From the IMG/VR virus record IMGVR_UViG_3300008954_000002, positions 1 through 64,000 of that record: a DNA stretch of 64,000 nucleotides. The stretch is one strand, 5' to 3'. This document shows, piece after piece, positions 5,250 to 48,362 of the stretch. This DNA comes from a virus. The notes beneath the pieces were generated by a model. That model made no database searches. It had not been told where the DNA came from and was given only the letters and a program-made list of their open reading frames with translations. The stretch's first letter is position 1; every line of letters begins with the position of its first letter. A program made the translations under genes and the position numbers.

Positions 5250-5368
5250 ATTTACTCCGTTCCCATCTCAAGGACAACAGCTAACGACTCCGTGAGGACA
5301 ATAAATAAATAATCCCTCCTCACGTCGGGCTTATGTCAGGGTGTCAACTCGTACAAAGGAGAACTGTT

Positions 5369-5413
5369 ATGCCTATCTCATTGGCAGAAGCAGTTGGCTT
5401 TCGTATTGAGTAA
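5369..5413 (+). CDS. 14-aa micro-ORF MPISLAEAVGFRIE
   Basis: Strong AAAGGAG RBS; lies downstream of an imperfect class II hairpin element at 5314-5339. Confidence 0.4.
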   Translation: MPISLAEAVGFRIE

Positions 5414-6409
5414 TTAGTTTTGCACTCGTAACGCCCCTAACGGGGAGGTGCATAGTCAAAGGGCCTGCGACGATAAACAAGGACCCTGCGGGCTTACAAA
5501 GCTGGTTCCCGGCAGTGAGATGAGCAGTAAGTTATAACCCACGGGCTCTGGAGAGTATTCAGTATGTCTATCTTGAATGAATGCTTTACTATACATATGG
5601 ACAGGTAGAGCGGTGTTGAGTCACCATCGTAAAGATCATAGTGCACTATGGTTAGTGGCTCGTTTTCCTATAGAGAGGAAGAAATGGGCGGAGCTCACAG
5701 GGGTATAGACTACTCCGTTAGTATCCTACCTAGGATCCTTAGGTTCTATTTAGATCCTCAATTCTTACCTACAATTGGGTAGGTAGATCTCTACTATCAA
5801 GCATTAGTTCTATTTATGTAGGTAGCGTTCAATACGCGTCTACGTGCGTACACACTTAGGGTGTGTACTCGATTACGAGCTAAAAACAGATATGTAAGCA
5901 CCGTTTATAAAACGTCAAGGGGTCTATTCAAATTAAATACATATTTCTTTTGTATAGGTGTTTATCCAGTACAGGTAAGAGTGGGCCGGGGTCTGTCAGG
6001 GATCAACTCTTTGAGTCCTATTAGATCCTTCGATCCTATCCAGGGTATATCCTATCAACACTCTTTGTTTCTATCTAGTACTCTTACAGTGAGAGTCTTC
6101 TGGGGGAAGCCTCCTGTGGGCGTACTAATCCTTTCAAGGGAATGATTGGGCCGTGCTCGTTGCACACACTGGGCAGGCCCTATAGAGAACTGGATAAGGT
6201 CGCTGACGCTCCCTACCAATAGGGTCCCGTAAGGGGCCCAATCAATACTCTTCAAGTCTGGGACCCACACTCCCATTCTCGATGTGGGTCCCTATGCAGG
6301 ATCCTGATAGTGACTATTGAACACCTGGGAGAACCATTCTATTCCCCTTTATTGGAAAATAGTTCAGAAAGATCTATTCCGCGCTGAAAATACCAACCAA
6401 GGAGTACTC

Positions 6410-6649
6410 ATGCTTGTAGCTTTCGAAATACTGATCTACGGAGCTAAGGTTCCCGTATATATCAACCCCAACCATGTAGTCATGTTGAGAGAAGATGAAT
6501 CACCCAACGAGACACGCATGATCCTGTCCAGTGTCAACAGCTGTGTTGTTGCTGGAACCCTCCAAGAAGTAGCACAAGCCCTTCAAGGAAAGACACCACC
6601 CTCCCTGTCAGAAGCAATGCTTGCACATGACATCAACTCACTAACTTAG
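6410..6649 (+). CDS. Small protein with an FlbD-like pattern (YINPNHV...VAGTLQEV)
   Basis: AAGGAG RBS at ATG 6410; motif resemblance only. Confidence 0.55.
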   Translation: MLVAFEILIYGAKVPVYINPNHVVMLREDESPNETRMILSSVNSCVVAGTLQEVAQALQGKTPPSLSEAMLAHDINSLT

Positions 6650-6657
6650 GAGACTAT

Positions 6658-6972
6658 ATGTCCCTGGTAAACAAAGTAAGAGAAGCTCTTGAAGCTCTCG
6701 TAGAGATCGGCAGTACTACTACTGATCACCTAGAAGAATGGCTCCGTATCCGTACAGAAGCTGGAGACACATTCCACGCAACAAGTTTGCGTCATGATGC
6801 AGCACTTACAACCCGCAACATTGAATCAGTAAGAGAAAGACTTGAGTATCTTACCTCTATTGGATCTGTCCCTGAACAAGTACAGATGGCGCTGACCATT
6901 CAGGAATTGTTCCCCAGTGGAGAAGCACTCCTCTCTGACCTTGTGTCATCTTCTTTAAATCCAGGTATTTAG
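6658..6972 (+). CDS. Hypothetical protein
   Basis: AGGAG RBS. Confidence 0.65.
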   Translation: MSLVNKVREALEALVEIGSTTTDHLEEWLRIRTEAGDTFHATSLRHDAALTTRNIESVRERLEYLTSIGSVPEQVQMALTIQELFPSGEALLSDLVSSSLNPGI

Positions 6973-7005
6973 GGGCATAATATATATAGCCAAAAGGAGG
7001 TTGCT

Positions 7006-7416
7006 ATGAATCTGACAGAAGCGAAGAAGCTACTCTCGAGTACAGTCCGGGGAGAGCTCCGCGATCATGCCTTCGGTGACCGAGAGGTCACCTGGTTCGT
7101 CGTCAAGGACGGCCTTATTGTGGCGCAAGCTGCAGAGGGCTACTTCGGCGGAGGCTCCAGTGGGGTGAGTGTCTACACGACGCCCATCCCGTTCGAGGAG
7201 CCGTGGGACTTCGAGACGGGAAGCGGGTACCTGGCGGAGGTGGACGACGAGGCCTACGCCGCTGCCGAGTTCGACGGTCGTGATGCTCGCGAGCTGCTGA
7301 CGTGCGGATCGTTGCGTGTCGGGCGCAACGATGAGACGGGTCCGGACACCTACCGGGACGGGGCGTGCATGCCAGGACTGACTCTCGAGGGAGTCAGGAA
7401 AGAGTTGTGCGGCTAA
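7006..7416 (+). CDS. Hypothetical protein, markedly GC-rich
   Basis: AAGGAGG RBS; third codon positions strongly G/C. Confidence 0.65.
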   Translation: MNLTEAKKLLSSTVRGELRDHAFGDREVTWFVVKDGLIVAQAAEGYFGGGSSGVSVYTTPIPFEEPWDFETGSGYLAEVDDEAYAAAEFDGRDARELLTCGSLRVGRNDETGPDTYRDGACMPGLTLEGVRKELCG

Positions 7417-7620
7417 GAGCTCTGCGCAAGCGGTAGGTCCAGAAGCAATCTCAAGAGCATACAGCAAAGACCAAAAGCGTATGCTCTGTGTCGCCCTAGG
7501 AATGGAACAGATGGAGTCTGAAGACGAGTACTGAGAACAATAAAAGAACCCTACTCCGGTGGGGTATCTTTTATTTTACTTAACTTCAGTATCTCATAAA
7601 TAAATAGCTCATAAATAATA

Positions 7621-7645
7621 ACTCCTTACGGAGTTTACTAGGTAG
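7621..7645 (+). promoter_or_regulatory. Class II hairpin element (ACTCC-TTAC-GGAGT ... TAG)
   Basis: One of ~13 copies; A-rich tract upstream, RBS and ATG 7666 downstream. Confidence 0.6.
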
Positions 7646-7665
7646 CCTTCACAAAAGGAAACAAT

Positions 7666-7848
7666 ATGAATGAGCTACCAAAGTGGATGGATCCTGATTA
7701 TGAACCGTTGGATGACCCAGCAGTTCGTGGATTTGATGGATTCTTCGATCCACCAGTATATGCTATAGGCAGGATACTGTTGATAACCGTAAGTGTAGGA
7801 GCAGCTATGACTGTTACCACACTCCTTGCACAACTCCTACCAGGATAA
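7666..7848 (+). CDS. Small protein with C-terminal TM helix
   Basis: AAGGA RBS; hydrophobic C-terminus. Confidence 0.6.
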   Translation: MNELPKWMDPDYEPLDDPAVRGFDGFFDPPVYAIGRILLITVSVGAAMTVTTLLAQLLPG

Positions 7849-7964
7849 GATAATGGGACTCTTCCATGGAATGCCACCAATACTCTTCCTTCTGTTTTGT
7901 ATTGGATATGTATACTTCAACTCAAATACCGGGGAATAGCCCAAGCATTCTGCTAGCACAAACA

Positions 7965-7992
7965 AGTGGGCTTACGCCCACTAACCGTACAG
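7965..7992 (+). promoter_or_regulatory. Class II hairpin element (AGTGGGC-TTAC-GCCCACT ... CAG)
   Basis: Perfect 7-bp stem; CAG at +15 to +17 from the loop. Confidence 0.6.
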
Positions 7993-16966: not shown

Positions 16967-17653
16967 ATGATCTACTATGCTGGCGATATTCATGGAGAAG
17001 TAGAAGCTGTTATTGGTGTAAACAATGCCGCTAGAAATAATAATATAAAGTATATTATCCAAGTAGGTGATTTTGGAATTAGATGGCCGGGAAGACCCTG
17101 TCCTATATATAAATACTTTAAAAAACAAAACTATCTTGGTAACAATAGTCCTATATGGATTACCTGTGGCGGTAATCACGACAATTGGGATAAATGGTTT
17201 AGCTTAGCTGAAAAACAAAGTCAACCCAACTTAGTAGAACTAGCACCTAACTGCTTTTATGCACAAAGGGGTGTTTACCTTAAAATAGAAGACATAGGAC
17301 ACTTGTTTTTAGGTGGCGCGGAAAGTGTTGATAAACACCACCGTACTGAAGGTAAAAGTTGGTGGGCAAGTGAAACACCTTCTTATGAAGAATTTAGTAA
17401 GTTCTTTACTAACTTGGAAAATCATAAGCCTGAAGTAGTAGTTACACATGATGCTCCTCTATTCTTGCCAATAGCAGGATATCAACGAAACAATAGTCCA
17501 ACACCACGCAATTTAGAGAATATTATTAAACTCTCTAGTCATAAGCCCACATATCATGTATATGGACATCACCATCTTCTTCAAGAAGATTTGATAGATG
17601 GAATCACTTACAAATGTTGTGGTCTTGGTGGTCAATATATAACCTTAGAATAG
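16967..17653 (+). CDS. Calcineurin-like metallophosphoesterase
   Basis: GDIHG, VGDFG, GNHD, THDAP and GHHH motifs. Confidence 0.88.
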   Translation: MIYYAGDIHGEVEAVIGVNNAARNNNIKYIIQVGDFGIRWPGRPCPIYKYFKKQNYLGNNSPIWITCGGNHDNWDKWFSLAEKQSQPNLVELAPNCFYAQRGVYLKIEDIGHLFLGGAESVDKHHRTEGKSWWASETPSYEEFSKFFTNLENHKPEVVVTHDAPLFLPIAGYQRNNSPTPRNLENIIKLSSHKPTYHVYGHHHLLQEDLIDGITYKCCGLGGQYITLE

Positions 17654-17679
17654 CGCGGCTTACGCCACGCAATAAGTAG
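17653..17679 (+). promoter_or_regulatory. Class II hairpin element (GCGCGGC-TTAC-GCCACGC ... TAG)
   Basis: Intergenic, 10 nt before ATG 17689. Confidence 0.55.
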
Positions 17680-17688
17680 GCATGTAAT

Positions 17689-18093
17689 ATGTACAAATGT
17701 ACTATTTGTGATGGCACAGGTATGCTTGGCGGAAGCATTAAATATACCTGTTTTGTATGTAATGGTGAAAAGAAAACTAGAAGACAAATTTCTCTTCAAG
17801 CCACTTCTAAATTTACAGCAAACACTCAAAATATATGGCTTCAAATTAATAATGCTCTCCACTCAACAGCTTCCAGTGTAAACATTGGAAATCAAACAAT
17901 TCCTATTAAGACAGGAACTAATGGCTGTCGTTTTATTAGATGGAAAAACAAAACATTTATGGAGCAAAACAAAGCCAAATCAAGCCACTATGCTAAAAAA
18001 GCAAAATTAGGCCAGAAAATTACTTGGATAATGAGCCAAGACAAAAGTAAATCTTGGGGCCTTATTATAGATGGAAAAATAAAACACTATTAA
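17689..18093 (+). CDS. Hypothetical protein with N-terminal CxxCxGxG Zn finger
   Basis: CTICDGTG ... CFVCNG. Confidence 0.6.
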   Translation: MYKCTICDGTGMLGGSIKYTCFVCNGEKKTRRQISLQATSKFTANTQNIWLQINNALHSTASSVNIGNQTIPIKTGTNGCRFIRWKNKTFMEQNKAKSSHYAKKAKLGQKITWIMSQDKSKSWGLIIDGKIKHY

Positions 18094-19690: not shown

Positions 19691-19692
19691 CT

Positions 19693-19720
19693 GACATCGC
19701 TTACGCGATGTCTTGCATAG
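19693..19720 (+). promoter_or_regulatory. Class II hairpin element (GACATCGC-TTAC-GCGATGTC ... TAG)
   Basis: Perfect 8-bp stem; precedes the tRNA pair. Confidence 0.6.
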
Positions 19721-19789
19721 CATTACAATATACAAGACAATCTAGAGCAAGGCCACTAATGGTCTTGCTCTTATTTCATATAAAGTTAT

Positions 19790-26740: not shown

Positions 26741-27105
26741 GGGGGTGAACTGGCTTCGACTTTGTAGCAAAGAAGAATAGTACAGGTGACCTTAAGAAAC
26801 AATAGGTCTAAAACTTAGTTTCAAAACCATAACTGCTAACAACAACAGTTTCAACGTAGCTCTAGCAGCTTAGTTGGGAGGCTTCTTAGAGCCTTCTATC
26901 CAATCTAAGATATCTTACCCTCGATGGAGAGAAACAACGCATTGAGAGAATGGCTACCCTACTTGTAGTAGGTGGATTCTAAGATGACATAAGAATGGTT
27001 GGCCTTGTCATTATTTTGCTATTTGAAGAAACAAATAGATAAACCTGTGAATAACTTGAATTCAAAACTATGAAGAACGCGGGTTCGAATCCCGCCACCT
27101 CCACC
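26741..27105 (+). ncRNA. ssrA: tmRNA; tag ANNNSFNVALAA* at 26835-26873
   Basis: 5' GGGGGTG..TTCGAC, 3' GCGGGTTCGAATCCCGCCACCTCCA, G3-U70 pair, ATAACT resume context. Confidence 0.95.
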
Positions 27106-32913: not shown

Positions 32914-32914
32914 G

Positions 32915-34310: not shown

Positions 34311-34709
34311 CTACCTCTTTCTAAGCCTTGTGGTATGAAGACGAGCTATCTGTATACTCTTCTTCCAAAAGACAATTCTTAAAGTTGCTACTACTTCGTT
34401 TCGTGGCATCTCGCTAGAATGTACACCGCCCTTACCCATGTGGCATGCTTTACATAGAGTGATGCCATTATCTAAATCATATGCAAATTGTGGTCTATAA
34501 TTCTTTGATATAACATGATGTGCATGTAGTACTTTGCTTTTACAATTACATGCAACGCATCTATAGTCATCTATTTCTCTAATAGCTAAAGACCACTTTC
34601 GAAGTTTATCTTTATTAAGTACAATATTAGTCGAAGCCTTACGGCTTCGCCTTCTGCGGGGCTTACCTCTTGAGAGATTTTTCCTTCTTTTATATAATCT
34701 TCTACGCAT
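34311..34709 (-). CDS. HNH endonuclease
   Basis: CVAC..LHAHH..DNGITLCKACH. Confidence 0.8.
   Translation of the reverse strand: MRRRLYKRRKNLSRGKPRRRRSRKASTNIVLNKDKLRKWSLAIREIDDYRCVACNCKSKVLHAHHVISKNYRPQFAYDLDNGITLCKACHMGKGGVHSSEMPRNEVVATLRIVFWKKSIQIARLHTTRLRKR
34632..34659 (+). promoter_or_regulatory. Class II hairpin element (CGAAGCC-TTAC-GGCTTCG ... CGG), antisense within the HNH gene
   Basis: Perfect 7-bp stem; sits where + strand genes resume. Confidence 0.5.
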
Positions 34710-37426: not shown

Positions 37427-37446
37427 TAAATATAAACTATAGGTAC

Positions 37447-37522
37447 GCGCCCGTAGCTCAGTATGGATAAGAGCACGAGGTTTCTACCCTCGCGGCCGTG
37501 GGTTCAAATCCTACCGGGCGTA
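37447..37522 (+). tRNA. tRNA-Arg(TCT)
   Basis: Acceptor GCGCCCG/CGGGCGT; anticodon arm CGAGG-TTTCTAC-CCTCG. Confidence 0.9.
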
Positions 37523-38128
37523 CCCTATTACACCTTGGATACCCTTAAAAAGATGATGTGGACCTTAGTCTCATACCAAAATGATAAACTCTTAGTGACT
37601 GAAAGCAACGGACCTCATGGCGAAGCAACTGCTTCTAATCACTTTGCTAAAACTTACTCTAATATACTTCTACTAATACCTGGCCGTCATTCAAAAGAAA
37701 TCTATTTTCTAAATAAAAAGGATTTAACATGCAAAAAACTGGTCGATTTATACAAGCTATAATTATGCGTTCTAACGCTAGAAAACAAGAAGCATTAGGC
37801 AATATAGAACTTATTCTAGATGAACCCAACCTAGAATTAAATCTAGCCAATAGACTAGAAAAAGAGATAGAAGAAGTAGCTCAGGCAGACTTAGTATTAT
37901 CTACTATCTCAAGCCTCTTCCCTACTCCTTCTCCAGCAAGTGAGCTACCTCCAGCTCCTCTACATGCAATAGTAGAAGAAGATGAATGATAGTCAAAAAG
38001 ATAAAACTCCACTTCTATTAAAGATAATTATCTTTACTACAATTACAATAATATGCATACTAGGAACAGCTATCCCTGCTAGAAAATGTACTTATTCTAA
38101 TAGTCAATTCTAAATAAATAATACCTTC

Positions 38129-38156
38129 AGCAGGCTTACGCCTGCTCTTCCTGCGG
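38129..38156 (+). promoter_or_regulatory. Class II hairpin element (AGCAGGC-TTAC-GCCTGCT ... CGG)
   Basis: TAAATAAATAATA upstream; precedes ssb. Confidence 0.6.
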
Positions 38157-38208
38157 CAGTTCATTAGAACTCTATTAATCTAAAATTAAGTGCTATAAGG
38201 AATAGCTG

Positions 38209-38643
38209 ATGAATAAATTTACTGGTATTGGTAACTTGGGTTCAAACCCTCAACTGCGGAAGACAGACTCGGGTATATCTGTAACAAACTTTAGTATTGC
38301 TATTGATAGAACCTACTATCAAGGCGAGGGTTCGAATAGGCAAACAGTTAAAGGAACTGATTGGATTCCAGTTGTTGCATGGGTAGGGCTTGCAGAAATT
38401 TGCTGTAAGCACCTACAGAAAGGCTCAAAGATTTGTGTAGAGGGAGTTATTAGACCTCGCTCATATCAAAATAGTCGAGGCACTACTCATAATACATTTG
38501 AAGTAATTGCTTCTGCAGTACACTTTTTGGACAAGATCCGTTCTAACAGTGAAGTTATGAACCAAGAAGAATCAGATACTAATACATCTGAAAAACTTGC
38601 AAGATTTATTGCAAACCACAGAGAAACATCTAGTCCTCTTTAG
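38209..38643 (+). CDS. ssb: Single-stranded DNA-binding protein
   Basis: MNK...IGNLG.NP.LR, TDWIPVVAW, L.KGS.I.VEG. Confidence 0.9.
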   Translation: MNKFTGIGNLGSNPQLRKTDSGISVTNFSIAIDRTYYQGEGSNRQTVKGTDWIPVVAWVGLAEICCKHLQKGSKICVEGVIRPRSYQNSRGTTHNTFEVIASAVHFLDKIRSNSEVMNQEESDTNTSEKLARFIANHRETSSPL

Positions 38644-39064
38644 GTTACTATAATAGGCAGCTGGGATATCTTCCCATGTTGCCTATTATTCTATACAACT
38701 TGCTGTGCTAATATATCTTAAATGCGAGGTATATGATGGCCAAATCTGTAGACAAAGATACAATAGATCAAGTTACAGAATTATTAGATATAATAGAAGC
38801 AGCTAACTTATCTAATATAGCTAAACTATCTATATGGTTAGCACTTACACAAAAAGTCTCAGCCACTGAGCCGGATCTGCTAACTACCACTATATTTAAT
38901 ATGATAGTAGAGGGCTTATGTGGTGATACTAACGATTTTCTTAATAGTACCTTAGTTTTTACTACTGCATTCGATAATGTTTCAAGATTTATTGTAGAAA
39001 ACTTTGACGATCTTATAGAACAAGAACATATTGCTAAAGATAAAGATGATGACTTCTTAAACTA

Positions 39065-39265
39065 ATGTTTAATACAATATCACCTATTATAGATCTACTT
39101 ACTAATAAATTGATTAGTAGGAAACTGCTTGCATTTGGACTTGCTACCTACCTTTTAGCAAACGATAACTTAACATCAGGCGATTGGACAATTATCACCT
39201 GCATTTATATAGGAGTTCAAGGTGCAATTGACTTCTGGAAAGTTAAGCACAGTATATCACCTTAA
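39065..39265 (+). CDS. Holin-like small membrane protein
   Basis: SRKLL...YIGVQGAID; 2 TM helices. Confidence 0.55.
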   Translation: MFNTISPIIDLLTNKLISRKLLAFGLATYLLANDNLTSGDWTIITCIYIGVQGAIDFWKVKHSISP

Positions 39266-39281
39266 TAATTTAACCCAACAA

Positions 39282-39821
39282 ATGAGATCATGTAAGGAAT
39301 GCTCCTTGCATGAGGAAGCAATACGCTCAGTACCAGGCTTCTCAACCTCTCCTCTTGCAAACATAGATTGTATGCTTATTGGAGAAGGCCCTGGTGAAGA
39401 TGAAGATAATCATGGATTACCATTTATTGGTAAGGCTGGGCAACTACTACAACAAATACTAACAGATATAGGACTAACAGAAAATATATACATTACTAAT
39501 GTAGTTAAACATCGTCCTCCTAAAAACAGAAAACCACATAAGCACGAAATGAAAACATGTGGGTTACATTTCTTACTTAGAGAAATAGATGAAATAAATC
39601 CTAAAAAAATAGTATGCTTAGGTAGAACATCTGCTGAATATCTTCTTGAAATATTAGAGCTACCATTTAAAGGTTCTCTCAGAGGACATAGATTCATGTA
39701 TATGGATATCCCTGTCCTCTGCACATGGCACCCAGCTTATATTCTTAGAAGAGAAGATAAACTAAGCGAATTGCTTGAAGATCTTACTTCTATAAGCATG
39801 TCTAACCTCACTCAAAAATAA
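39282..39821 (+). CDS. udg: Uracil-DNA glycosylase family 4
   Basis: CxxC, IGEGPG.DED..G.PFIG.AG, TNVVKHRPP.NR, TWHPAY. Confidence 0.92.
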   Translation: MRSCKECSLHEEAIRSVPGFSTSPLANIDCMLIGEGPGEDEDNHGLPFIGKAGQLLQQILTDIGLTENIYITNVVKHRPPKNRKPHKHEMKTCGLHFLLREIDEINPKKIVCLGRTSAEYLLEILELPFKGSLRGHRFMYMDIPVLCTWHPAYILRREDKLSELLEDLTSISMSNLTQK

Positions 39822-40187
39822 TAAATATAATGCAATCAACTCCATATACAGTCTTAGTATCTTTTGCAGGTACTCTAAATCTAGAAACATTATCTACAGA
39901 AAATAGAGTTGCGGCTGAAACCAATTCCACAGTATACCTTCTAAATAAAGTATATACTGAATTAAACAGAGCAATAGCTCATGGCTATATCTCTAGTAAT
40001 TCTATAGACATTAAAGCAGTATCACTTGAAAAACAGAACTTTTTAATTAAGGCTAATGAAGAAAGTACAGTTAAGCAAATATCTTGTACTGACCAGTCAA
40101 GCCAAAGCCTACTAAATAAAGAACTACTTTTATACTATAAGCCTACTCATTCACAAGGAGAACCCATGATATCTCTATTATCGAATA

Positions 40188-40562
40188 GTGAATCACCCTC
40201 AACGGCTTAAGAAGCCTCCAGGAGGTCATAGACACTTTGCCTTTGCAATTATAGGTAAGACTATCTATATAGGTTGGAACAATAGTAAGACAAGACCTCA
40301 ACTCTTACATATAAAGAAAAGTGGCGTTGCTGTTGCATGTCATCATGCTGAAGCACACGCAATATATAAAGTACCATACAGTAAAAGGAAGGATGCTAAA
40401 ATATATGTAATGAGAATAAGAAAAAATGGTAATCTAGCATTAAGCAAACCCTGTTCAAATTGCATTAGATTGCTAAAAGAATACAAAATAAAGCCTAGAA
40501 ATATCTGGTATACAGATAAACATGGCAAATGGACAAACCTCCATGAAAACAAAACTGTATAG
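40188..40562 (+). CDS. Zn-dependent deaminase-fold protein
   Basis: HAE ... SKPCSNC. Confidence 0.8.
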   Translation: MNHPQRLKKPPGGHRHFAFAIIGKTIYIGWNNSKTRPQLLHIKKSGVAVACHHAEAHAIYKVPYSKRKDAKIYVMRIRKNGNLALSKPCSNCIRLLKEYKIKPRNIWYTDKHGKWTNLHENKTV

Positions 40563-41436
40563 TGGAACAAGTTATTGGCTTAGCAGGGCAGGTCATTATA
40601 ACTTCTATTATCAATATGGCTCTCCCTTAAAGTTAGAAAATACAATAATGGGAGAGAAACTACTTTGGCTATCAGACAATCAGCAATATTTGGCATATAG
40701 AATAGAACCAAATGATATTCCTAATTTTCAGTCTAAAATAAATGTTATATGGATAAAAAATGAAGAGTAGTAAAATTAAAAAACTTCAGAAAGTATTGTT
40801 TGATAGCATATTAAAAAACAACTTGCTAAAAGCCCAACTTACTAGATACCAATCAAAAATCAGCCAGCTTGAAAATAGACTACTAAGATTAGATAAAAAG
40901 AACTCAGAAGAGTTAGAAATAGTAGCACTAGCTGAAGATATACTTGAGTAATAGGATTAGTGATGACACTATCAATTCTTCCCCTCACTATTTTCTCTAT
41001 AGTTGGGTTAATAATTACTAGTTATTACTTTATCTGTGTAGGCAAAGCACTTGTATACTATGTAAAATTCCATAGCTTTCCATTAACAGAAAAAGAACAG
41101 CAATTAAAAATCCTCCAACAAGAAAATAAAAGACTTAATGAGATCATTTCTAGACTTGAATCTGAAACAGAAGAAATGACTCGCGCTTTAATACAGCGCC
41201 TCTCTTAACTAATAAAAGATATATATGCTTTATACTACTTTCTTAGATACATCTCAGTATCAACCCTATTATACTCCTGCTCAAAATATACATACCGTCT
41301 CTTATATTCCGTACATTGGATGTACGTTATCTGCAGATACGACAAGCTTGTATACTGCTTATTTTAGTTTTTCTCGCTAAATAAGTGCATATACATAGTT
41401 GATAGGAGCTATTCGATAGATTTACAATAGCTATAA

Positions 41437-43209
41437 TTGTTCACAATTAGAAGAAGTATGACTCTATTACCACTACAGGTCGTCTCATTTGAAGAAGGAG
41501 TTCCTATTCCAAACAATATCTTCAATTTTAAGATGACAAAAAGCCAAATAGAGTCTTTTGAAGTTGAGCCTGTTGAACTGCAGGATTCAACTACTATAGA
41601 ACATGCTTTCCTATTGGGAATTTCTGTACTAGATAGTTTAAATCTAAATCTTACTACTTCTGCTGAAGAGCTAGTAGAAACTATTACATTTGTAGGCACT
41701 CTATGTGAACTTATAAAAGTTTCTGAATCAGACGAATATATATATAATGTTGAATGCTTAGTTTATGCTAGAGCAAATTTAGATACAATAGATGGTACAC
41801 AAAACCCACTTAAGTGTGGAGTACATATAATAGACGACATACTTCTTCCTGGTGAAGAAGAGCTACTTACTGATATGCGGTCACTTATTAAACTGCTTTT
41901 AGTTAATGAAAATGTTTTGTCTATAGAAATAACAAAACAAATAGCTATTACCAATGACATACTAATTATATCAAATATATTAGCTACGTCTCTAAATCTT
42001 AGCAATAAAGACAAACTAAGATATCTACAATCAAATGATACTCTAGATCGATTTACAATCGTTCTTCAAAACCTTATAAGAACTTTAGACAAAACTTCTT
42101 CTCAAGGATCATCTATTGGGAAACTAATAGATCCCTTCTCTTTGGAAACAAGTAAACCTAAAAAAACTTCTAGATCTAAGCGCAAGCCAGTAACTTCTTC
42201 TTTAGAAGATAAGCTTAAGCTAGTTAAAAATGCACCCCAAGAAGTACTAGACAAAGTACAAAGAGAAACCAGTAGGCTATCATCGTTGCCCACTGGCTCA
42301 TTAGAATATCAAACATTATATGAATATCTTACTTGGGTATCTGAAATTCCATGGGGAGTCACTACAAATAAACAAGTAGAACTTACTACCTTGATTGATG
42401 AACTAAGCAAAACTCATTACGGATTAGATGATGCTAAAGAACATATTCTTGAGTATCTAACTATCGAGCATATAACCGGGAGTACAAAAGGCACAGTAAT
42501 GTGTTTTGCAGGACCTCCTGGTACTGGAAAAACAACCTTAGCTAAGCAAATTGCTCATGCTTGTAATAGAAAGCTAATACGCATTGCATTAGGTGGCCTA
42601 TCTGATGAATCAGAACTTAGAGGACACCGCAAAACTTATGTATCTGCATACCCAGGTCGCTTAGCTAAGGGACTCAAGGATGCCAAGGCAATGGATCCAC
42701 TGTTCTTGTTGGATGAAGTAGATAAGCTAGATATGAAGAGAGGAGATCCTACAGCTGCCCTACTGGAAATATTAGATCCAGAACAAAATGACGCTTTTAT
42801 AGATAGATATCTAGAACTACCTGTAGATCTTTCAAAAGCTATGTTTATATGCACAGCTAACTATCTTGATATGGTTCCTGAACCACTACTCGATAGATTC
42901 GAAATAATTGAGTTTAGAGAGTATACGCTAGAAGAAAGAGAAATAATCCTACAATCTTTTATGGTAGATAAATGGATAAGAGAATACGGATTGGCTGACT
43001 TTGATATTACTATCCAAGAAGAAGCATACCCAGTATTCTGCCAACCTACTGGCGTAAGAAATATAGAGAGAACACTTAAAAAACTACTACGAAAGGCAGC
43101 AGTTTCTATTGTAGTCAATCACGAAGACAAAGTTATTATCACAGCAGAAGATGTTGAAAAAGTATCTAAACAACAATCTAAAACTAAAATAGGTTTCTCA
43201 GCAGGTTAA
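41437..43209 (+). CDS. Lon-like AAA+ ATPase lacking the C-terminal protease domain
   Basis: HYGL..AKE.I, GPPGTGKT, RGHRKTY..AYPG, LLDEVDK, ALLEILDPEQN, GVRN; ends KIGFSAG. Confidence 0.85.
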   Translation: MFTIRRSMTLLPLQVVSFEEGVPIPNNIFNFKMTKSQIESFEVEPVELQDSTTIEHAFLLGISVLDSLNLNLTTSAEELVETITFVGTLCELIKVSESDEYIYNVECLVYARANLDTIDGTQNPLKCGVHIIDDILLPGEEELLTDMRSLIKLLLVNENVLSIEITKQIAITNDILIISNILATSLNLSNKDKLRYLQSNDTLDRFTIVLQNLIRTLDKTSSQGSSIGKLIDPFSLETSKPKKTSRSKRKPVTSSLEDKLKLVKNAPQEVLDKVQRETSRLSSLPTGSLEYQTLYEYLTWVSEIPWGVTTNKQVELTTLIDELSKTHYGLDDAKEHILEYLTIEHITGSTKGTVMCFAGPPGTGKTTLAKQIAHACNRKLIRIALGGLSDESELRGHRKTYVSAYPGRLAKGLKDAKAMDPLFLLDEVDKLDMKRGDPTAALLEILDPEQNDAFIDRYLELPVDLSKAMFICTANYLDMVPEPLLDRFEIIEFREYTLEEREIILQSFMVDKWIREYGLADFDITIQEEAYPVFCQPTGVRNIERTLKKLLRKAAVSIVVNHEDKVIITAEDVEKVSKQQSKTKIGFSAG

Positions 43210-43212
43210 CCC

Positions 43213-44064
43213 ATGATAATAAAATCCACTCCAGAAGACGGAGTGGTGCCTCATCGTGAGAACATCCGTGTTATTCATGAAAGCCTACCTATACTGCCAA
43301 TATTAAGCGATCTAGACCCCATATATGCAGGTGGGTATGCTATGGCACTACTCTTTGCTCCTAGAGCTGAAAACGGAACTACTATTCAGTCTAAATACTA
43401 TGGAGATTATGATATTTACTTTAGTAATATCGATACACTTGACGAAGCTCAAGGTAGATTGGCCAGTGTTGATACCGTAAAAAGTTGTTCAGAAACAGAT
43501 AACGCTCACACATATAGTCATCTATCTTCTGATGGAAAATATAATCCTCAATTACAGCTTATTAAGATAGCAACAGGCAATCCTAGTATAATATTAAAAG
43601 AATTTGATTTTATTAATTGCGCAGTTGCTTATACTCCATTGAATCAAAATATCTATTTTCATAAAGACACTATCTCGTTACATCACGATCGTTCTCTTGG
43701 TGTGCTAAAGCCAAGATATATTCCTCCCAGAACTGAAGATGATGTAATTGTACAACTCGCTAGAATACAAAAGTATTGTATGCGTTGGGAATATAGACTA
43801 AGCAATACATTATATGATCTATTAATAGAACTATATAATGAATACCCAAATCTTATAGCAAGACAAGGCCAAGTATATTACAGCACTTTCTCATCTTATC
43901 GAGACACACAAGTTATAGGAACTTGTACAGAGAATATCTGGACAATATTAGCTCCGCTAATACGAGCACATCCCAATTGGATAAACACTCCAGATATACA
44001 TAATATAATTACTAGAGCACCTCTAGAATATAGAATTAACTCTATATTAGAAGCTAGAACCTAG
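43213..44064 (+). CDS. Nucleotidyltransferase (Pol-beta/CCA-PAP head-like)
   Basis: AGG...DYDIYF, QLI, FDFINCAVA. Confidence 0.65.
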   Translation: MIIKSTPEDGVVPHRENIRVIHESLPILPILSDLDPIYAGGYAMALLFAPRAENGTTIQSKYYGDYDIYFSNIDTLDEAQGRLASVDTVKSCSETDNAHTYSHLSSDGKYNPQLQLIKIATGNPSIILKEFDFINCAVAYTPLNQNIYFHKDTISLHHDRSLGVLKPRYIPPRTEDDVIVQLARIQKYCMRWEYRLSNTLYDLLIELYNEYPNLIARQGQVYYSTFSSYRDTQVIGTCTENIWTILAPLIRAHPNWINTPDIHNIITRAPLEYRINSILEART

Positions 44065-44317
44065 ATCTCTTATTATATAAAAAGATCGTTCTTAAAATAA
44101 TACGATCCTACCCTAAATAAAGGAAACCTTTAATGGAAATTTCACGAGTGCCCCAAAACTTTTACTTTGTAGAACGTGACGGCAGAGTTATGCCTACAGT
44201 CCTAACATCTAGAAAGGAAGCACGTAGCGTAAAAACTAGCCTTGCTTCAAGCTATCAGAGCAGCAGCTTTCGCATTCTACAGAGAGCAGTTGTCTTAGGA
44301 GAGCCAACCCTAGTTAG

Positions 44318-45016
44318 CTAATAAAGCTTAATAGGTATATTTTCAATGGGGACTGCAAGCACTTGACTTGCTTGTGGTCCCCATGTGCCTACGCCTATAG
44401 CTATAGTAATAGCTACTAGCTCTCCTTGCCTATTGTAAATACCACCACCAGAATATCCAGGAGCAGCATAACCATCTATACCATAAAGCACTCCCTCAGG
44501 ATACTCTAATAACCAAGCTGTATGACCTTGACTAACCCATGGATGTTGTCCAAAGGGTACTCCAATTAGTGTTACTGGTTCTCCTATAGCAAGTTGAGAG
44601 CCTTGACTAACTAGTGCTGGAGTTACCCCCTCAGGTATCTCAGTGAGTGGATAGAATGCCCAATCAGTAACTGGGTGTTCATCCGAATCGAAAAGAAAAT
44701 ATCCATCCATGTTGATACAACTTTTGCCCTCTAGATTACATACTCTGATATTGGTGTCTAATACGCCCAAAACAACATGTTCTGCAGTAAGTACAATACT
44801 ACCAAGACTTTCCGTATATATTAAGACTCCAGATCCCGTTGCTCGCCAATCTTTATATATCGGATCAAATTCTTGTATCACTAAAGCATGTTCTATTGCT
44901 TGTGCACTAATTTTTTCAATACTTCGTGTTGGGCCTAAAGACATCGTGTTAGACCATATACAACAAATAGAAAAGGTCAACACTGTAACTAATACGGCTA
45001 GGTTATAGCGAAACAT
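44318..45016 (-). CDS. Trypsin-like serine protease, secreted or membrane-anchored
   Basis: GSGV, LTAEHV, D, GYSGGG. Confidence 0.85.
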   Translation of the reverse strand: MFRYNLAVLVTVLTFSICCIWSNTMSLGPTRSIEKISAQAIEHALVIQEFDPIYKDWRATGSGVLIYTESLGSIVLTAEHVVLGVLDTNIRVCNLEGKSCINMDGYFLFDSDEHPVTDWAFYPLTEIPEGVTPALVSQGSQLAIGEPVTLIGVPFGQHPWVSQGHTAWLLEYPEGVLYGIDGYAAPGYSGGGIYNRQGELVAITIAIGVGTWGPQASQVLAVPIENIPIKLY

Positions 45017-45581
45017 TATAATCTCCTACTAAATACTACCACTCTATAAAACATTAGTATAAAGTAAGAAGACTTACCATTCAAAGGCTATTCAAATATG
45101 TACAACACAGAAACTGCTATTATAAATCCATCTGATCTGTTATATGACTCATCAATAGATGCTTGGTCAGCAGTTACAAAGCAACATACTATTATTGTTA
45201 TAGATAAAGATGATACTTTCTATAAAGTAGAGGGCTGGGCCTCATCTAATATGACAGCTGTACCAGATATGAGCTTTTCAGTAAGAAAAGACTCTTACAC
45301 CCCGCCTGGATCTATAACATTGTCTAATATCATAAATTCTTTTGATCTTTTCATTGAAGAATACAATTAATGAAACTCTATTGTTTAGATTTCGACAACT
45401 GTGGCTTCTACAAAAAATATGAAGAAGATGAAGTTGTACCAAAGAATATATGCCCAGATTGTTACTCTTTAGCAGCAGTATATTCTGATAATTATACTCC
45501 TATATTCATAGATTCAGATCCTAATAAGCAAGAATATTTAGAGTCTCTTTTACAATACTATCTTACAAAAGAGACCTAATA

Positions 45582-45609
45582 AGCGCTCTTACGTGCGCTC
45601 TTTGTATAG
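45582..45609 (+). promoter_or_regulatory. Class II hairpin element upstream of the E2 gene
   Basis: AGCGCTC-TTAC-GTGCGCT, TAG at +15 to +17. Confidence 0.55.
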
Positions 45610-45646
45610 CGATAAACTTATTAACCCTAAATAGGATATTCTGATA

Positions 45647-48328
45647 ATGATTCCTATAACTAGAGATGAATTTGCTGTTGTTACAAGAACAATACTTGAA
45701 TATAATCAATGGCAATCACTACTTACTCAAAATGAAATAGAAACAGCATATATACTAGAGAACTATAACCTCTATCTACCTTATCGAAGACCAAGAGAAG
45801 GAGACGATCAGGAAGTGTTGGGCTTTCTAAACACAGAAGCTCCAGATACTCTATTTTGTAGAGTGTCATCTAATTCTGTACGCAAAGCTATGCTTTGTAG
45901 CTATAGAACAAATCCTATAACAGAGCAAAAAGAGCTTGCTTTCCCACTTACAGTTAGCAAAATTAGTAACAATATATATACTACATGCCCTGGAAAGGCA
46001 TATGAATATTTTCAGTCTGAAATAGACATAAATCTTTTTGAAGCAGATATAGTGGAAAGACATAGCAATGATCAAGATATAACTATCAATAATAAAGAGC
46101 TCACTTTAGATCTTATAGATCCTGTGCACTCTAAGCGTGCGTTCTACGCACGTAACAGACGCTACATGGAACTAATTGATTGCTCTCTTCCGATTGATAC
46201 TATTGCACCCTTCTCATTACTTGGTGATATGCCAAACGTAAAGCAAGCCTTTCTAAGTACTACCAATAACAATAGAATACCTGCTATCAAAATTAGCAAC
46301 TTGTATAGAGGCGGCTCTACAGGAGATGCAGTAGCAGAACTAGTTCCTAATGCAAGACCTCAAAAAATAGCTAAAGGTGGACACATCTTTATGTATAAGA
46401 TGTCAGTCTTAGCTATAGATTTTGAAACAACAAGTTGGAAACCTGTCACAATATACAACTTAGGTATCTTTGAACCACGTACAAAAGTTATCAAGTATAA
46501 GCGAAGTAGAACATTTATACCCAAAATAGCTACTGAACTGTTTGATAATGAAGGTCTTAAATACTTTGCTCCTGAAGAGTGGGAAGAGTATATACTTAAG
46601 CAATATGGACATCACACTACATATTGGAACGGTATCACTAGAATATTTCCTAAAGGATTACCGCCTAAAACTAAAGTTATAAATAACATTTTAGATCAGC
46701 ACGAAACTAGTCCAGAAGAATTTAAATATATAACTTATGCCTCTCAGATAGAAAATATTCCAGATGTAGTACAATATAGAAACATCTACTCATCTTATAA
46801 CAATATTGATAATCAGCTAACTGGACTAGTGGCTACTATAAATAATAATGACAGAATAATTAATAGAAATACTCGGGATATTAAATCTTATCGACAAAGC
46901 ATTGAAGAATATGAAAACAATATTCAACAGTTGACTACTGCTAATGAAAAGCATAGCACTTCACTAACTGGATTAGAAGAAGCAAAAACTTCAATACAAG
47001 AAGAATTGGCAGCTGCAGAAGCAAGTTATACTGCTGCTCTTAATAAAAGTATTTTATCTGAGGAAGTCCTTATTCAAGCAGAATCATGGATAAATAATCT
47101 CAGAAATACTGGTATTGTTATCCATAAAATTACTTATTATAATAGCAACACTAATGAAAGCAGAGACTTATCTGAGTCTCCTCAAGTAGCCTTGTTAGCT
47201 AAACAAGACATAGCATGGAATTTGCAGAGTATAAACTTCTCAACTCTTAAACCAGTAGTTATTAAAGTAGACTATGGACGTGATGGTGAGAATTGTAAGA
47301 AGATAGTAGGTGGTCCATATAATGTTGAGCTTACACAAAGCAATCTCAATATCAAACTATCCTCAAGCACAGCCTGTTTTGGTTTAAGTGATAGCTACAT
47401 ATGGGCTCATCCACATACTTCTTCTCAATCTATATGCATATCTACATCTACATCTGATTCAAAAGTAGCTTGGACCAACTTTAAAAGAGCAATTTCTAGG
47501 TGGACATCAGCATGCTTAGGTGAAGCATCACCAGGAATATATAAAGCTTTTGAGAACAATGAACCAAAGACAGCTATTTTTGCAGCAATGACTTGGATAA
47601 CAAATGCTAACTCAAAAGATGCTTGGGGTAAGAACTATAAATATTTTCCTAAACTAGATGCCGTTTCTATAACAGAAAGTAAAAATGAAAATATTATAGA
47701 CAAATTTAATGCTGAGACATTAGTAACTACTGAAGATGGTATGGACATCATTATCGAGGAAATGTTTACTAGGTTAACTAATATAGAAGAAACTAACACC
47801 ATCGACAATTTAGAAGAATATATAGAATCAGTTCCAACCGTAAATGTAAACAGTGGCTGGTCATATGTACACTTTGATGATATTGCTATAGAAAACTATT
47901 TACACAATATAAGACTACACACTAGGACTAGTGAAGGTAATAGAGAAATATCTTTTGCACAAGATATGGAAACTAGTATTATTCTTAGCCATGAAGAAAT
48001 AATAAATTGGCTAATTGATAACATAGACAAATGGAAAGAACTAGTAAATTATCATACTATTTCTACAGAAATAGAACCAGTAGAATCTATCCATGCAAGA
48101 GCATTCAGCAGAACATATGAAAATATGTTTATTATGTATTTTGGTAGTAACCCTTGGCAATATATACCAAATCCTATAGTTATTGAAAATAACACTATCT
48201 ACGATGAGCAAAGATATACCATATTAGATTCTGTTAACTCAGTAGAAAACTATATAAAGAGTTGTTTAGGTATTCCTTCTAACTTGCCTATAGCAACTAC
48301 TAGCTCTAGCTACCAACCATATCGATAA
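45647..48328 (+). CDS. Large protein with coiled coil and prokaryotic E2-like (UBC) domain
   Basis: HPH ... ACLG (candidate catalytic Cys623) followed by helices; upstream of JAB, E1 and Ubl. Confidence 0.65.
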   Translation: MIPITRDEFAVVTRTILEYNQWQSLLTQNEIETAYILENYNLYLPYRRPREGDDQEVLGFLNTEAPDTLFCRVSSNSVRKAMLCSYRTNPITEQKELAFPLTVSKISNNIYTTCPGKAYEYFQSEIDINLFEADIVERHSNDQDITINNKELTLDLIDPVHSKRAFYARNRRYMELIDCSLPIDTIAPFSLLGDMPNVKQAFLSTTNNNRIPAIKISNLYRGGSTGDAVAELVPNARPQKIAKGGHIFMYKMSVLAIDFETTSWKPVTIYNLGIFEPRTKVIKYKRSRTFIPKIATELFDNEGLKYFAPEEWEEYILKQYGHHTTYWNGITRIFPKGLPPKTKVINNILDQHETSPEEFKYITYASQIENIPDVVQYRNIYSSYNNIDNQLTGLVATINNNDRIINRNTRDIKSYRQSIEEYENNIQQLTTANEKHSTSLTGLEEAKTSIQEELAAAEASYTAALNKSILSEEVLIQAESWINNLRNTGIVIHKITYYNSNTNESRDLSESPQVALLAKQDIAWNLQSINFSTLKPVVIKVDYGRDGENCKKIVGGPYNVELTQSNLNIKLSSSTACFGLSDSYIWAHPHTSSQSICISTSTSDSKVAWTNFKRAISRWTSACLGEASPGIYKAFENNEPKTAIFAAMTWITNANSKDAWGKNYKYFPKLDAVSITESKNENIIDKFNAETLVTTEDGMDIIIEEMFTRLTNIEETNTIDNLEEYIESVPTVNVNSGWSYVHFDDIAIENYLHNIRLHTRTSEGNREISFAQDMETSIILSHEEIINWLIDNIDKWKELVNYHTISTEIEPVESIHARAFSRTYENMFIMYFGSNPWQYIPNPIVIENNTIYDEQRYTILDSVNSVENYIKSCLGIPSNLPIATTSSSYQPYR

Positions 48329-48334
48329 GGGCAG

Positions 48335-48362
48335 GGCGGGCTTACACCCGCCATCTACCCAG
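48335..48362 (+). promoter_or_regulatory. Class II hairpin element upstream of JAB-E1-Ubl
   Basis: GGCGGG-CTTACA-CCCGCC, CAG at +15 to +17. Confidence 0.55.

What the first reader, a model, noticed from the sequence alone, without database searches (positions are those of the whole stretch)
5314..48362. Dispersed variable-stem hairpin with fixed C-TTAC-R loop and fixed-distance YRG: candidate hairpin promoter family
Seen: copies at 5314 (imperfect), 7621, 7965, 9063, 9130, 11584, 14349, 17653, 19693, 34632, 38129, 45582 and 48335, plus an intragenic perfect stem at 888-905. Stem sequences differ but stay complementary. The loop is TTAC or TCAC, i.e. GTAA/GTGA on the template strand. In all 13 listed copies a YAG/YGG triplet lies at +14-16 or +15-17 from the loop, several have AATAAATA upstream, and nearly all are intergenic before genes, tRNAs or ncRNA. 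They lack U-tracts, so they are not terminators. Established: N4 virion RNAP recognises template-strand DNA hairpins at a fixed distance from +1. Inference: a hairpin or cruciform promoter read by the two-barrel RdRP-like RNAP; I am not aware of this being described for that family.
Basis: partly seen in the sequence, partly recalled or inferred. Interest (0 to 1): 0.85.

Follow-up and report, generated by a model that had tools for sequence, protein, structure and literature searches.

The report
Hairpin promoter candidates in uncultured phage
An uncultured 161-kb marine phage carries about 14 small DNA hairpins with a fixed loop just upstream of its early genes; they look like start signals for the phage's own unusual RNA polymerase, read as a folded template strand, which so far is known only from the unrelated phage N4 enzyme.

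Summary
All 13 listed copies exist, on the + strand and outside convincing ORFs. Each has a 7-bp GC-rich stem of variable sequence, a C-T[T/C]AC-R loop, a G-poor spacer, then a purine and a G at 16 and 17 nt after the loop. A covariance model adds a minus-strand copy (6222-6239) and finds nothing beyond 48.4 kb of the 161-kb genome.

Non-Watson-Crick cells in the stems are C·A, which is G·T on the template strand. The phage's ordinary terminator hairpins show the opposite bias (Fisher p=4.5e-5). The structure is therefore selected on the template strand, where the loop reads c-GTAA/GTGA-g.

The units follow intrinsic terminators and precede Shine-Dalgarno sites, tRNAs and a conserved 1-kb RNA. 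They start directly after the gene for a QDE-1/YonO-like two-barrel RNA polymerase, whose fold I confirmed. A separate AT-rich element (TTTTATTTTAATGG) covers the region around that gene. Six of seven related lineages examined keep the architecture and five the loop-to-G distance; the loop differs by lineage.

Best reading: N4-like template-strand hairpin promoters for the non-virion two-barrel RNAP (confidence about 0.5). No transcript ends could be examined.

The parts
5313..5340 (+). Class II unit 1. Imperfect hairpin with TCAC loop and AT box upstream. Predicted +1 at 5339, G at 5340.
   Evidence: (20 bits). It lies 60 nt after the terminator at 5213-5250.
6212..6239 (-). GGGCCCC-TTAC-GGGACCC, then TAGG. 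Predicted +1 near 6213. It points into the ORF-free stretch 5400-6200.
   Evidence: (24.7 bits, E 8e-4). It carries one C·A mismatch.
7619..7646 (+). Class II unit: hairpin, TTAC loop, TAG. Predicted +1 at 7645. SD and ATG at 7666.
   Evidence: Terminator at 7548-7576 and AT boxes lie upstream.
7965..7992 (+). Class II unit in front of the conserved 1.06-kb ORF-free RNA. Predicted +1 at 7991.
   Evidence: Homologous sites in L003 and L007 have different stems and a TCAC loop.
9063..9090 (+). Class II unit with AT box, directly after the terminator at 9010-9050. Predicted +1 at 9089.
9130..9157 (+). Class II unit with TCAC loop before the conserved 88-aa gene at 9200. Predicted +1 at 9156.
   Evidence: A hairpin sits upstream of the orthologous gene in 6 of 7 lineages.
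11585..11612 (+). Class II unit with CTTACA loop (T·G closing pair on the template strand). Predicted +1 at 11611. A 500-nt ORF-free stretch follows.
14349..14376 (+). Class II unit with AT box and CTTACA loop. Predicted +1 at 14375.
17653..17680 (+). Class II unit with an internal C·A mismatch. Predicted +1 at 17679. ATG at 17689.
19693..19721 (+). Class II unit with an 8-bp stem, before the two tRNA genes. Predicted +1 at 19720.
34632..34659 (+). Class II unit. Predicted +1 at 34658.
38129..38156 (+). Class II unit with an AT box 6 nt further upstream. Predicted +1 at 38155.
   Evidence: best score, 31.2 bits
45582..45609 (+). Class II unit before the 893-aa gene. Predicted +1 at 45608.
48335..48362 (+). 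Class II unit with CTTACA loop, between the 893-aa and 400-aa genes. Predicted +1 at 48361.
888..915 (+). Perfect TTAC hairpin inside ORF 534-1160, within the class I territory. Membership uncertain.
   Evidence: 22 bits; the ORF's C-terminal part has homologues in L003 and L007
52632..52659 (+). Possible extra copy: CTCTCT-CTTACA-AGAGAG with AG at +16/17 and ATG at 52662. Weak; the covariance model did not report it.
9051..9062 (+). AT box ATAAATAAATAA abutting the hairpin. The other copies are at about 5299-5312, 7596-7619, 14337-14348 and 38111-38122.
   Evidence: The same box occurs in relatives L002, L003, L004, L007, L016 and L028.
9010..9050 (+). Canonical intrinsic terminator immediately upstream of a class II unit. 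Others are at 5213-5250 and 7548-7576.
1849..4707 (+). Gene for the 952-aa single-chain two-barrel RNAP (QDE-1/YonO-like, invariant DDDGD). Proposed reader of the class II units.
1805..1818 (+). Class I element TTTTATTTTAATGG at the foot of a UUCG terminator. Other copies are at 1, 1221, 1458 and 4758, and beyond the window at 160308, 160780 and 160980.

Best explanation
The elements are promoters of the phage's early transcription units and work in the manner of phage N4 early promoters. Negative supercoiling, or local melting helped by the AT-rich flank, lets the template (bottom) strand fold into a 7-bp hairpin. That hairpin is capped by a stable c-GTAA-g or c-GTGA-g tetraloop. The phage's 952-aa QDE-1/YonO-like two-barrel RNA polymerase, encoded just upstream, binds the hairpin tip. 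It starts RNA synthesis at the conserved purine-G pair 16-17 nt downstream of the loop, with the distance measured from the loop rather than from the stem base.

The units form the second promoter class of a cascade. An AT-rich class I element (TTTTATTTTAATGG) serves the region that contains the polymerase gene. Class II hairpins then serve the next 43 kb.

Shown here:
- the motif and its statistics;
- selection of the structure on the template strand;
- the positions of the units relative to terminators and genes;
- the separate territories of the two classes;
- conservation of the architecture and geometry in relatives;
- the fold of the polymerase.

For: 1. The motif is real and far above chance.

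2. The structure is selected on the template strand.
- In the 7-bp core, non-Watson-Crick cells are 7 C·A (8 with the minus-strand copy) against 1 G·T.
- There are no G·U-type single-side changes in 168 cells.
- The bottom strand folds as stably or more stably at all 13 copies.
- The class I terminator hairpins of the same phages show the opposite: 49 G·U in + strand folds against 10 in minus-strand folds, and the + strand is more stable 28 to 6. Fisher p=4.5e-5.

3. The template loop, 5'-c-G-T-R-A-g, has the 5'G, the 3'A and the C:G closing pair that N4 needs for extrusion (PMC4496689).

4. Position fits a promoter.
- All copies are co-oriented with the genes. Twelve lie outside my ORF calls and the thirteenth only inside a doubtful minus-strand ORF.
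- For protein genes the gap from hairpin end to start codon is 18-62 nt where a gene follows directly (9 copies; 178 nt at 34632).
- Three copies sit directly after canonical terminators.

5. Territories are separate. Class I occupies 160.3 kb to 4.8 kb across the terminal repeat. Class II occupies 5.3-48.4 kb and starts after the polymerase operon. The same order is seen in relatives.

6. Geometry is conserved although the polymerases are only about 30% identical.
- G lies at loop end +17 in 6 of 7 copies in G002 although the stem base distance varies from 7 to 10.
- Y-G-G/A lies at +15-17 in G004, where the loops are TTGC or TGGC.
- GG lies at +16/17 in L030.
- The orthologous gene orf9200 keeps an upstream hairpin in 6 of 7 lineages, with unrelated stems.

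7. The polymerase is a two-barrel RdRP-like enzyme: Foldseek E 6e-14 to QDE-1 and 3e-8 to the Thermus phage nvRNAP. No T7-like RNAP and no sigma factor was detected in the genome.

8. Precedent: phage P23-45 uses AT-rich promoters for its virion RNAP and GC-rich promoters for its homologous non-virion RNAP (PMC10770324).
Against: - There are no transcript 5' ends.
- Nothing shows that a 7-bp hairpin extrudes in this DNA.
- The link to the non-virion polymerase rests on adjacency, territory and lineage-specific loops only.
- The P23-45 promoters were described as linear motifs with no hairpin.
- No copy lies between 19.7 and 34.6 kb, so other promoters or long read-through must exist there.
- In 10 of 24 copies the minus strand has a T-rich tail after the hairpin, so part of the family could also stop antisense transcription.
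- The wobble asymmetry rests on 8-9 cells, five of them at the loop-closing position.
- The second (virion) polymerase claimed by other notes could not be confirmed here.
Confidence: 0.5

Rival explanations
1. The units are promoters, but they are read as ordinary duplex DNA. The polymerase or a cofactor recognises the central CTTACG and the +1 RG in double-stranded form. The palindromic arms never extrude. They would persist for another reason, for example easy melting, or an RNA hairpin formed in read-through transcripts.
For: Position, orientation, territory and conserved geometry fit any kind of promoter. The P23-45 nvRNAP promoters are described as linear GC-rich motifs.
Against: Arm sequences vary freely while complementarity is kept: 92% paired and 70 double changes. 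That shows selection on intramolecular pairing. The mismatch bias points to the bottom strand and not to the RNA-like strand. In G002 the loop is not conserved at all, yet the hairpin and the distance are.
Confidence: 0.15
2. The elements act in plus-strand RNA. They could be a terminator for the phage polymerase that lacks a U-tract, an RNase processing or stabilising hairpin with cleavage at YAG, or an operator for a translational repressor.
For: The hairpins are intergenic, lie just upstream of ribosome-binding sites and in four cases start within 6 nt of the preceding stop codon. A fixed distance to YAG could mark a cleavage site.
Against: There are no G·U pairs in 168 stem cells, whereas real RNA terminators of the same phages have about 10%. 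C·A mismatches break the RNA stem but are wobble pairs on the other strand. The RNA loop UUAC is not a stable tetraloop, while the complement is of GNRA type. Three copies sit just after canonical terminators and would be redundant as terminators. Only 2 of 24 copies have a T-rich tail.
Confidence: 0.12
3. The elements are intrinsic terminators for minus-strand (antisense) transcription. On that strand they form a GC hairpin with a GNRA tetraloop followed by UUAUUUAUUUAUU. They would shield the early region from convergent transcription.
For: The consensus scan flags the minus-strand versions of 7620, 7965, 9063 and 14349 as terminator-like. The minus strand is the strand on which the structure is selected. 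Ten of 24 copies have a T-rich minus-strand tail.
Against: Fourteen of 24 copies have no T-rich tail. This reading leaves four features unexplained: the near-invariant loop sequence, the constant 7-bp stem, the conserved purine-G at a fixed distance on the other side, and the restriction to the territory after the polymerase gene. The one minus-strand copy (6222-6239) has no T tract on the + strand. The AT box has a specific period-4 sequence conserved across distant relatives, not a plain T run.
Confidence: 0.1
4. The hairpins are bottom-strand DNA signals for another DNA transaction. Examples are primase loading (a hairpin plus a 5'-CTR-3' trinucleotide, as at single-strand initiation sites) or a structure-specific nuclease or transposase site.
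For: The structure is selected on the template strand. YAG on the + strand equals 5'-CTR-3' on the bottom strand, which from my own knowledge resembles DnaG-type primase trinucleotides.
Against: Such sites have no reason to be intergenic, to sit 18-62 nt before start codons, to follow terminators or to be confined to the early gene block. Stem sequences differ in every copy, so this is not a mobile repeat.
Confidence: 0.03

Closest known systems
Early promoters P1-P3 of coliphage N4, read by the virion RNA polymerase (PMC4496689)
   Same: Both are short GC-rich inverted repeats upstream of +1 whose stem sequence is partly free. In both, the functional hairpin is on the template strand. Both template loops begin with G and end with A and are closed by a 5'C:G3' pair. 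In both, the start lies at a fixed distance from the loop, so that longer stems have to melt at the base. In both, template C is conserved at or next to the start.
   Different: N4 has a 3-nt loop centred at -11 and 5-7 bp stems. Here the loop has 4 nt, is centred near -17/-18, and the stem is a constant 7 bp. N4 has three promoters at one genome end. Here there are about 14 spread over 43 kb, some with an AT box. The N4 enzyme is a T7-like single-subunit RNAP. This genome has no such gene, and the candidate reader is a two-barrel RdRP-like enzyme. Dependence on gyrase and SSB is unknown here.
Two-polymerase cascade of Thermus phage P23-45: gp96 virion RNAP with AT-rich promoters, gp64 non-virion RNAP with GC-rich promoters (PMC10770324)
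   Same: The non-virion polymerase is a structural homologue (Foldseek hits to 8f5m and 8f72). There are two promoter-like classes, one AT-rich and one GC-rich. The AT-rich class covers the polymerase gene and the GC-rich class covers the following early genes.
   Different: The P23-45 motifs are described as linear sequence motifs, and no hairpin is mentioned. Here the GC-rich class is a covarying hairpin. The tape-measure-fused virion RNAP of this phage is only suggested by an invariant DFDGD and was not confirmed.
Rho-independent (intrinsic) terminators
   Same: Both are GC-rich stem-loops in intergenic DNA.
   Different: There is no U-tract on the coding strand (2 of 24 copies). The loop is fixed and the stem length is fixed. 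A conserved purine-G lies 16-17 nt after the loop. The mismatch bias is on the opposite strand from the genome's true terminators.
YonO of SPbeta and QDE-1-type RdRPs
   Same: Both are single-chain two-barrel polymerases with a DxDGD motif. QDE-1 is the best structural match.
   Different: The YonO promoter was undetermined when the enzyme was described in 2017 (PMC5467207). Pfam, PHROGs and PDB sequence searches find no similarity for the phage protein.

Membership tests
N4-type DNA-hairpin promoter | Short inverted repeat (5-7 bp stem, small loop) at a fixed distance upstream of the start | tested here: met
   7-bp stem and 4-nt loop. Purine-G at loop end +16/17 in 22-23 of 24 copies. The distance is kept from the loop and not from the stem base in G002. 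The start itself is predicted, not mapped.
N4-type DNA-hairpin promoter | The hairpin functions on the template strand, with a loop from 5'G to 3'A closed by 5'C:G3' | tested here: met
   The template loop is c-GTAA/GTGA-g. C·A against G·T counts are 7-8 to 1, the reverse of the terminators. The bottom strand is as stable or more stable at 13 of 13 copies. This is sequence evidence only.
N4-type DNA-hairpin promoter | Read by a T7-like single-subunit virion RNAP | tested here: not met
   No PF00940 match in the complete genome, though that search's control genomes did not ring either. The polymerase next to the units is a two-barrel QDE-1-like enzyme.
N4-type DNA-hairpin promoter | Extrusion that depends on supercoiling and SSB; activity on single-stranded template | not testable with these tools
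   Needs probing and in vitro transcription.
P23-45-type two-RNAP cascade | Non-virion two-barrel RNAP homologous to gp64 | tested here: met
   Foldseek E 3e-8 and 3e-7 to 8f5m and 8f72, with probability 1.00.
P23-45-type two-RNAP cascade | Virion RNAP fused to the tape measure protein | tested here: inconclusive
   A 1755-aa protein next to a 2962-aa tail-module ORF has an invariant DFDGD in 3 homologues. The model had pLDDT 47.7, there was no profile match to the nvRNAP, and atlas scores were below 0.8.
P23-45-type two-RNAP cascade | Two promoter classes with separate territories, the AT-rich one covering the nvRNAP gene | tested here: met
   Class I occupies 160.3 kb to 4.8 kb and class II occupies 5.3-48.4 kb. 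The same order is seen in relatives. Their promoter function is not shown.
Intrinsic terminator | GC-rich hairpin followed by a U-tract on the transcribed strand | tested here: not met
   On the + strand, 2 of 24 copies have at least 5 T in 8. On the minus strand, 10 of 24 do.

The most novel reading that the evidence does not exclude
A whole clade of QDE-1/YonO-like phage RNA polymerases (at least 150 clusters at 50% identity in metagenomes) uses extruded template-strand DNA hairpins as promoters. The enzyme would grip the hairpin tip and start 16-17 nt away, with lineage-specific loop sequences. This would be a second, independent origin of the N4 solution in an unrelated polymerase fold. 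It would also be consistent with the preference for single-stranded templates reported for this enzyme family.
Probability: 0.4. Interest if true: 0.85.

Novelty: new variant of a known kind. Interest (0 to 1): 0.72.

Why it matters
How single-chain two-barrel RNA polymerases (YonO, crAss-like and P23-45-type enzymes) find their promoters is largely open. The YonO promoter was undetermined when the enzyme was described. The P23-45 motifs are known only as sequence logos.

This phage clade offers a compact, testable promoter code: a 7-bp hairpin of free sequence, a four-base loop and a fixed ruler to the start. Dozens of natural variants, including compensatory stem changes and lineage-specific loops, are already in hand.

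If the enzyme reads a folded template strand, hairpin promoters evolved twice, in T7-like and in two-barrel polymerases. That would link these phage enzymes mechanistically to QDE-1, which copies single-stranded DNA. A 952-aa polymerase with a promoter of about 35 nt could also be a useful orthogonal expression tool.

Tried and rejected
- Cultured relatives: there is no nucleotide or protein match in GenBank phages, so no published transcriptome applies.
- Rfam reports only tRNAs and the tmRNA, and nothing for the hairpins or the large ORF-free RNAs.
- Sequence searches of the polymerase against Pfam, PHROGs and PDB gave nothing. Only the predicted fold identified it.
- Virion polymerase: the PDB sequence search was empty, atlas scores were below 0.8, the model was of low confidence and not searched, and the profile comparison with the nvRNAP found nothing. 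Its identity is therefore left open.
- The covariance model built on TTAC loops found nothing in four more distant relatives. Direct hairpin scans showed that they carry the same architecture with other loops.
- Host sigma-70 promoters were rejected as an explanation. The AT box contains no TANNNT hexamer (read directly from its sequence), and sigma-70-like sites are not enriched (26 found against 37.5 expected).
- A mobile repeat was rejected because every copy has a different stem.
- The 71373 hairpin with a TCAC loop was rejected as a member because the model does not score it.
- Literature searches found no description of hairpin promoters for two-barrel RNAPs.

Full report
**Context.** The window is the first 64 kb of a complete 161,098-bp uncultured virus record with direct terminal repeats. 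Plus-strand genes fill 1-87.5 kb and minus-strand structural genes fill the rest. The window encodes a weak tubulin/FtsZ-domain match (below Pfam's threshold), a Lon-like ATPase, a glutamine-synthetase-like protein, an intein-containing ribonucleotide reductase, five tRNA genes and a tmRNA. GenBank phages hold no relative. Relatives occur only in metagenomes, including Tara Oceans assemblies.

**The observation.** All 13 listed copies are present. Anchored on the loop, they align without gaps with 11 copies from four related contigs (alignment A2). The unit reads as follows:
- often ATA, or a longer ATAAATAAATAA box;
- a 7-bp stem of free sequence, counting the closing pair;
- the loop T-T/C-A-C, closed by C and G (or A);
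- an 8-nt G-poor spacer;
- a purine at loop end +16 (23 of 24) and G at +17 (22 of 24).

The stem is 92% paired, with 70 double-change cells and no single-side change. No shuffle and no slid register comes near this.

A covariance model recovers the 13 copies and the intragenic 888 copy. It adds a new minus-strand copy at 6222-6239 and finds nothing in the remaining 113 kb. Perfect TTAC/TCAC hairpins number 8 against 0.36 expected. When the loop is left free, TTAC/TCAC is the only recurring loop. Twelve copies lie outside my ORF calls and 34632 lies only inside a doubtful minus-strand ORF. TAAATAAATA abuts five copies, which is five of its six plus-strand occurrences.

**Which strand folds.** Within the 7-bp core, the non-Watson-Crick cells are seven C·A and one G·T. 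The new minus-strand copy adds an eighth C·A. C·A on the coding strand is a G·T wobble on the template strand. The variable closing base (G or A) fits this reading, since it makes C-G or T·G on the template strand.

As a control I folded the hairpins that precede the TTTTATTTTAATGG elements of this phage and its relatives, which are ordinary terminators. They carry 49 G·U pairs in plus-strand folds against 10 in minus-strand folds, and the plus strand is more stable in 28 cases against 6. The contrast with the TTAC family gives Fisher p=4.5e-5. With both RNA and DNA energy parameters, the bottom strand is as stable or more stable at all 13 copies.

On the bottom strand the loop reads c-GTAA-g or c-GTGA-g. 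This has the 5'G, the 3'A and the C:G closing pair that N4 early promoters need for extrusion and stability (PMC4496689). The element is therefore not a feature of the sense RNA. That weighs against a sense terminator, a processing site or a translational operator.

**Position.** Canonical terminators, with a UUCG-type loop and a T-tract, lie just upstream of the units at 5314, 7620 and 9063. Downstream of the units come Shine-Dalgarno sites and start codons 18-62 nt after the hairpin for most protein genes, two tRNA genes, or ORF-free stretches. One such stretch, 7991-9050, runs to a strong terminator. It is 70% identical over 570 nt to the corresponding regions of two relatives. The alignment is strongly conserved from about the predicted start, and weaker conservation continues upstream.

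**Two classes with separate territories.** TTTTATTTTAATGG, each copy at the foot of a terminator hairpin, occurs on the plus strand at 160308, 160780, 160980 (equivalent to position 1), 1221, 1458, 1805 and 4758. This checks an earlier first-stage note. That block contains the 952-aa polymerase gene. The hairpin class begins at 5314, after the terminator that closes this block, and ends at 48.4 kb. The AT-rich element is conserved almost unchanged in every relative examined, upstream of or just after the polymerase gene.

**The polymerase.** The 952-aa protein has no Pfam, PHROGs or PDB sequence match. Its eight-sequence alignment has an invariant DDDGD. Its model (pLDDT 80) matches QDE-1 at Foldseek E 6e-14, plant RDR2, the Thermus phage non-virion RNAPs at E 3e-8, P23-45 gp96 and the crAss-like phi14:2 virion RNAP. 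A profile search finds 212 clusters at 50% identity, 150 of them below 1e-30. The genome has no detectable T7-like RNAP and no sigma factor.

A second two-barrel polymerase in the tail module, proposed in other notes, has an invariant DFDGD in three homologues. I could not confirm its fold.

**Relatives.**
- With polymerases 57-61% identical (L003, L007), the sites before the large RNA and before the conserved 88-aa gene are kept. Their stems are different and their loops are TCAC or TTAC. The site before the orf7666 orthologue has terminator, ATAAATAAATAA, a hairpin with loop C-TGAC-G and TGG at +15-17.
- At 34% identity (L004), six CTTACG/CTCACA hairpins follow the polymerase gene. Some have the AT box, and five have TAG or AAG at +15-17 (the sixth has TGG).
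- At 29% identity (G004), twelve plus-strand hairpins with loops TTGC, TGGC, TTGT or TGGT all lie downstream of the polymerase gene, most of them with Y-G-G/A at +15-17.
- At 30% identity (G002, complete, 132 kb), seven hairpins directly follow the gene. Their loops are not conserved and their stems are 7-9 bp. Even so, the G of a conserved ATGA lies at loop end +17 in six of them, while its distance from the stem base varies from 7 to 10.
- Two further relatives show TTAC/TGAC loops with CATAAATAA boxes (there TGG lies 1-3 nt closer to the loop), or four hairpins with GG exactly at +16/17.

The architecture and the ruler measured from the loop are thus features of most lineages examined, while the loop differs between lineages.

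**Interpretation.** The simplest account is a promoter in which the template strand folds, the polymerase recognises the hairpin tip, and synthesis starts 16-17 nt downstream. This is the logic of N4 early promoters (PMC4496689), here paired with an unrelated polymerase fold. The layout of two classes mirrors phage P23-45, where the virion RNAP uses AT-rich promoters and the homologous non-virion RNAP uses GC-rich promoters (PMC10770324). That paper mentions no hairpin. The YonO promoter was undetermined in 2017 (PMC5467207). I found no paper describing hairpin promoters for two-barrel RNAPs.

The AT box may help local melting or act as an upstream element. It also reads as stops in all three frames, and as a T-rich tail on the minus strand. 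Its role is open.

**Limits and rivals.** No transcript ends were available. Four rivals remain:
- The promoter is read as duplex DNA. This cannot be excluded, but it does not explain strand-biased selection on pairing.
- The element is a minus-strand terminator. This is possible for the 10 of 24 copies with a T-rich tail. It leaves the fixed loop, the fixed stem length and the conserved purine-G unexplained.
- The element works in sense RNA. The wobble bias disfavours this.
- The element serves a DNA transaction other than transcription. This fits the positions poorly.

I put the hairpin-promoter reading at about 0.5 and any kind of promoter at about 0.65.

Noticed in passing
window 7991-9050: This is a 1.06-kb ORF-free stretch between a class II unit and a strong terminator. 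It is 70% identical over 570 nt to L003 and L007, with compensatory-looking changes in its helices. Rfam has no match. It is a candidate large structured RNA.
   Followed up: partly
window 5400-6300: This ORF-free region of about 900 nt is bracketed by convergent class II units (the plus-strand unit at 5314 and the minus-strand unit at 6222-6239). After the 5314 unit there is only a 14-codon ORF at 5370. The region is not conserved at DNA level in L003 or L007.
   Followed up: partly
window 1-4771 and genome 160308-160993: The element TTTTATTTTAATGG sits at the foot of UUCG terminators, in eight plus-strand copies spanning the terminal repeat. It is conserved almost unchanged in every relative, always upstream of or just after the polymerase gene. 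It is probably the other promoter class.
   Followed up: partly
window 726-755, 860-885, 1125-1156, 2229-2260, 2392-2419: Unusually long perfect hairpins (10-14 bp) lie inside ORFs of the GC-rich first 5 kb, two of them within the polymerase gene. I have no explanation for them.
   Followed up: no
window 10714-10743: A perfect sigma-70 consensus (TTGACA, 18 nt, TATAAT) lies on the plus strand inside a 543-nt ORF-free gap. Across 5-20 kb as a whole, sigma-70-like sites are not enriched.
   Followed up: no
whole genome: There is a strong GC gradient: 53% in the first 4 kb, about 35% from 12 to 52 kb, and 41-47% in the replication and structural parts.
   Followed up: no
genome 123221-128488, minus strand: A 1755-aa protein next to a 2962-aa tail-module ORF has a DFDGD motif that is invariant in three homologues down to 28% identity. 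This fits other notes that call it a virion RNAP. Its fold could not be confirmed (model pLDDT 47.7).
   Followed up: partly
window 26741-27105: The phage encodes a one-piece tmRNA with the tag ANNNSFNVALAA, flanked by tRNA genes.
   Followed up: no
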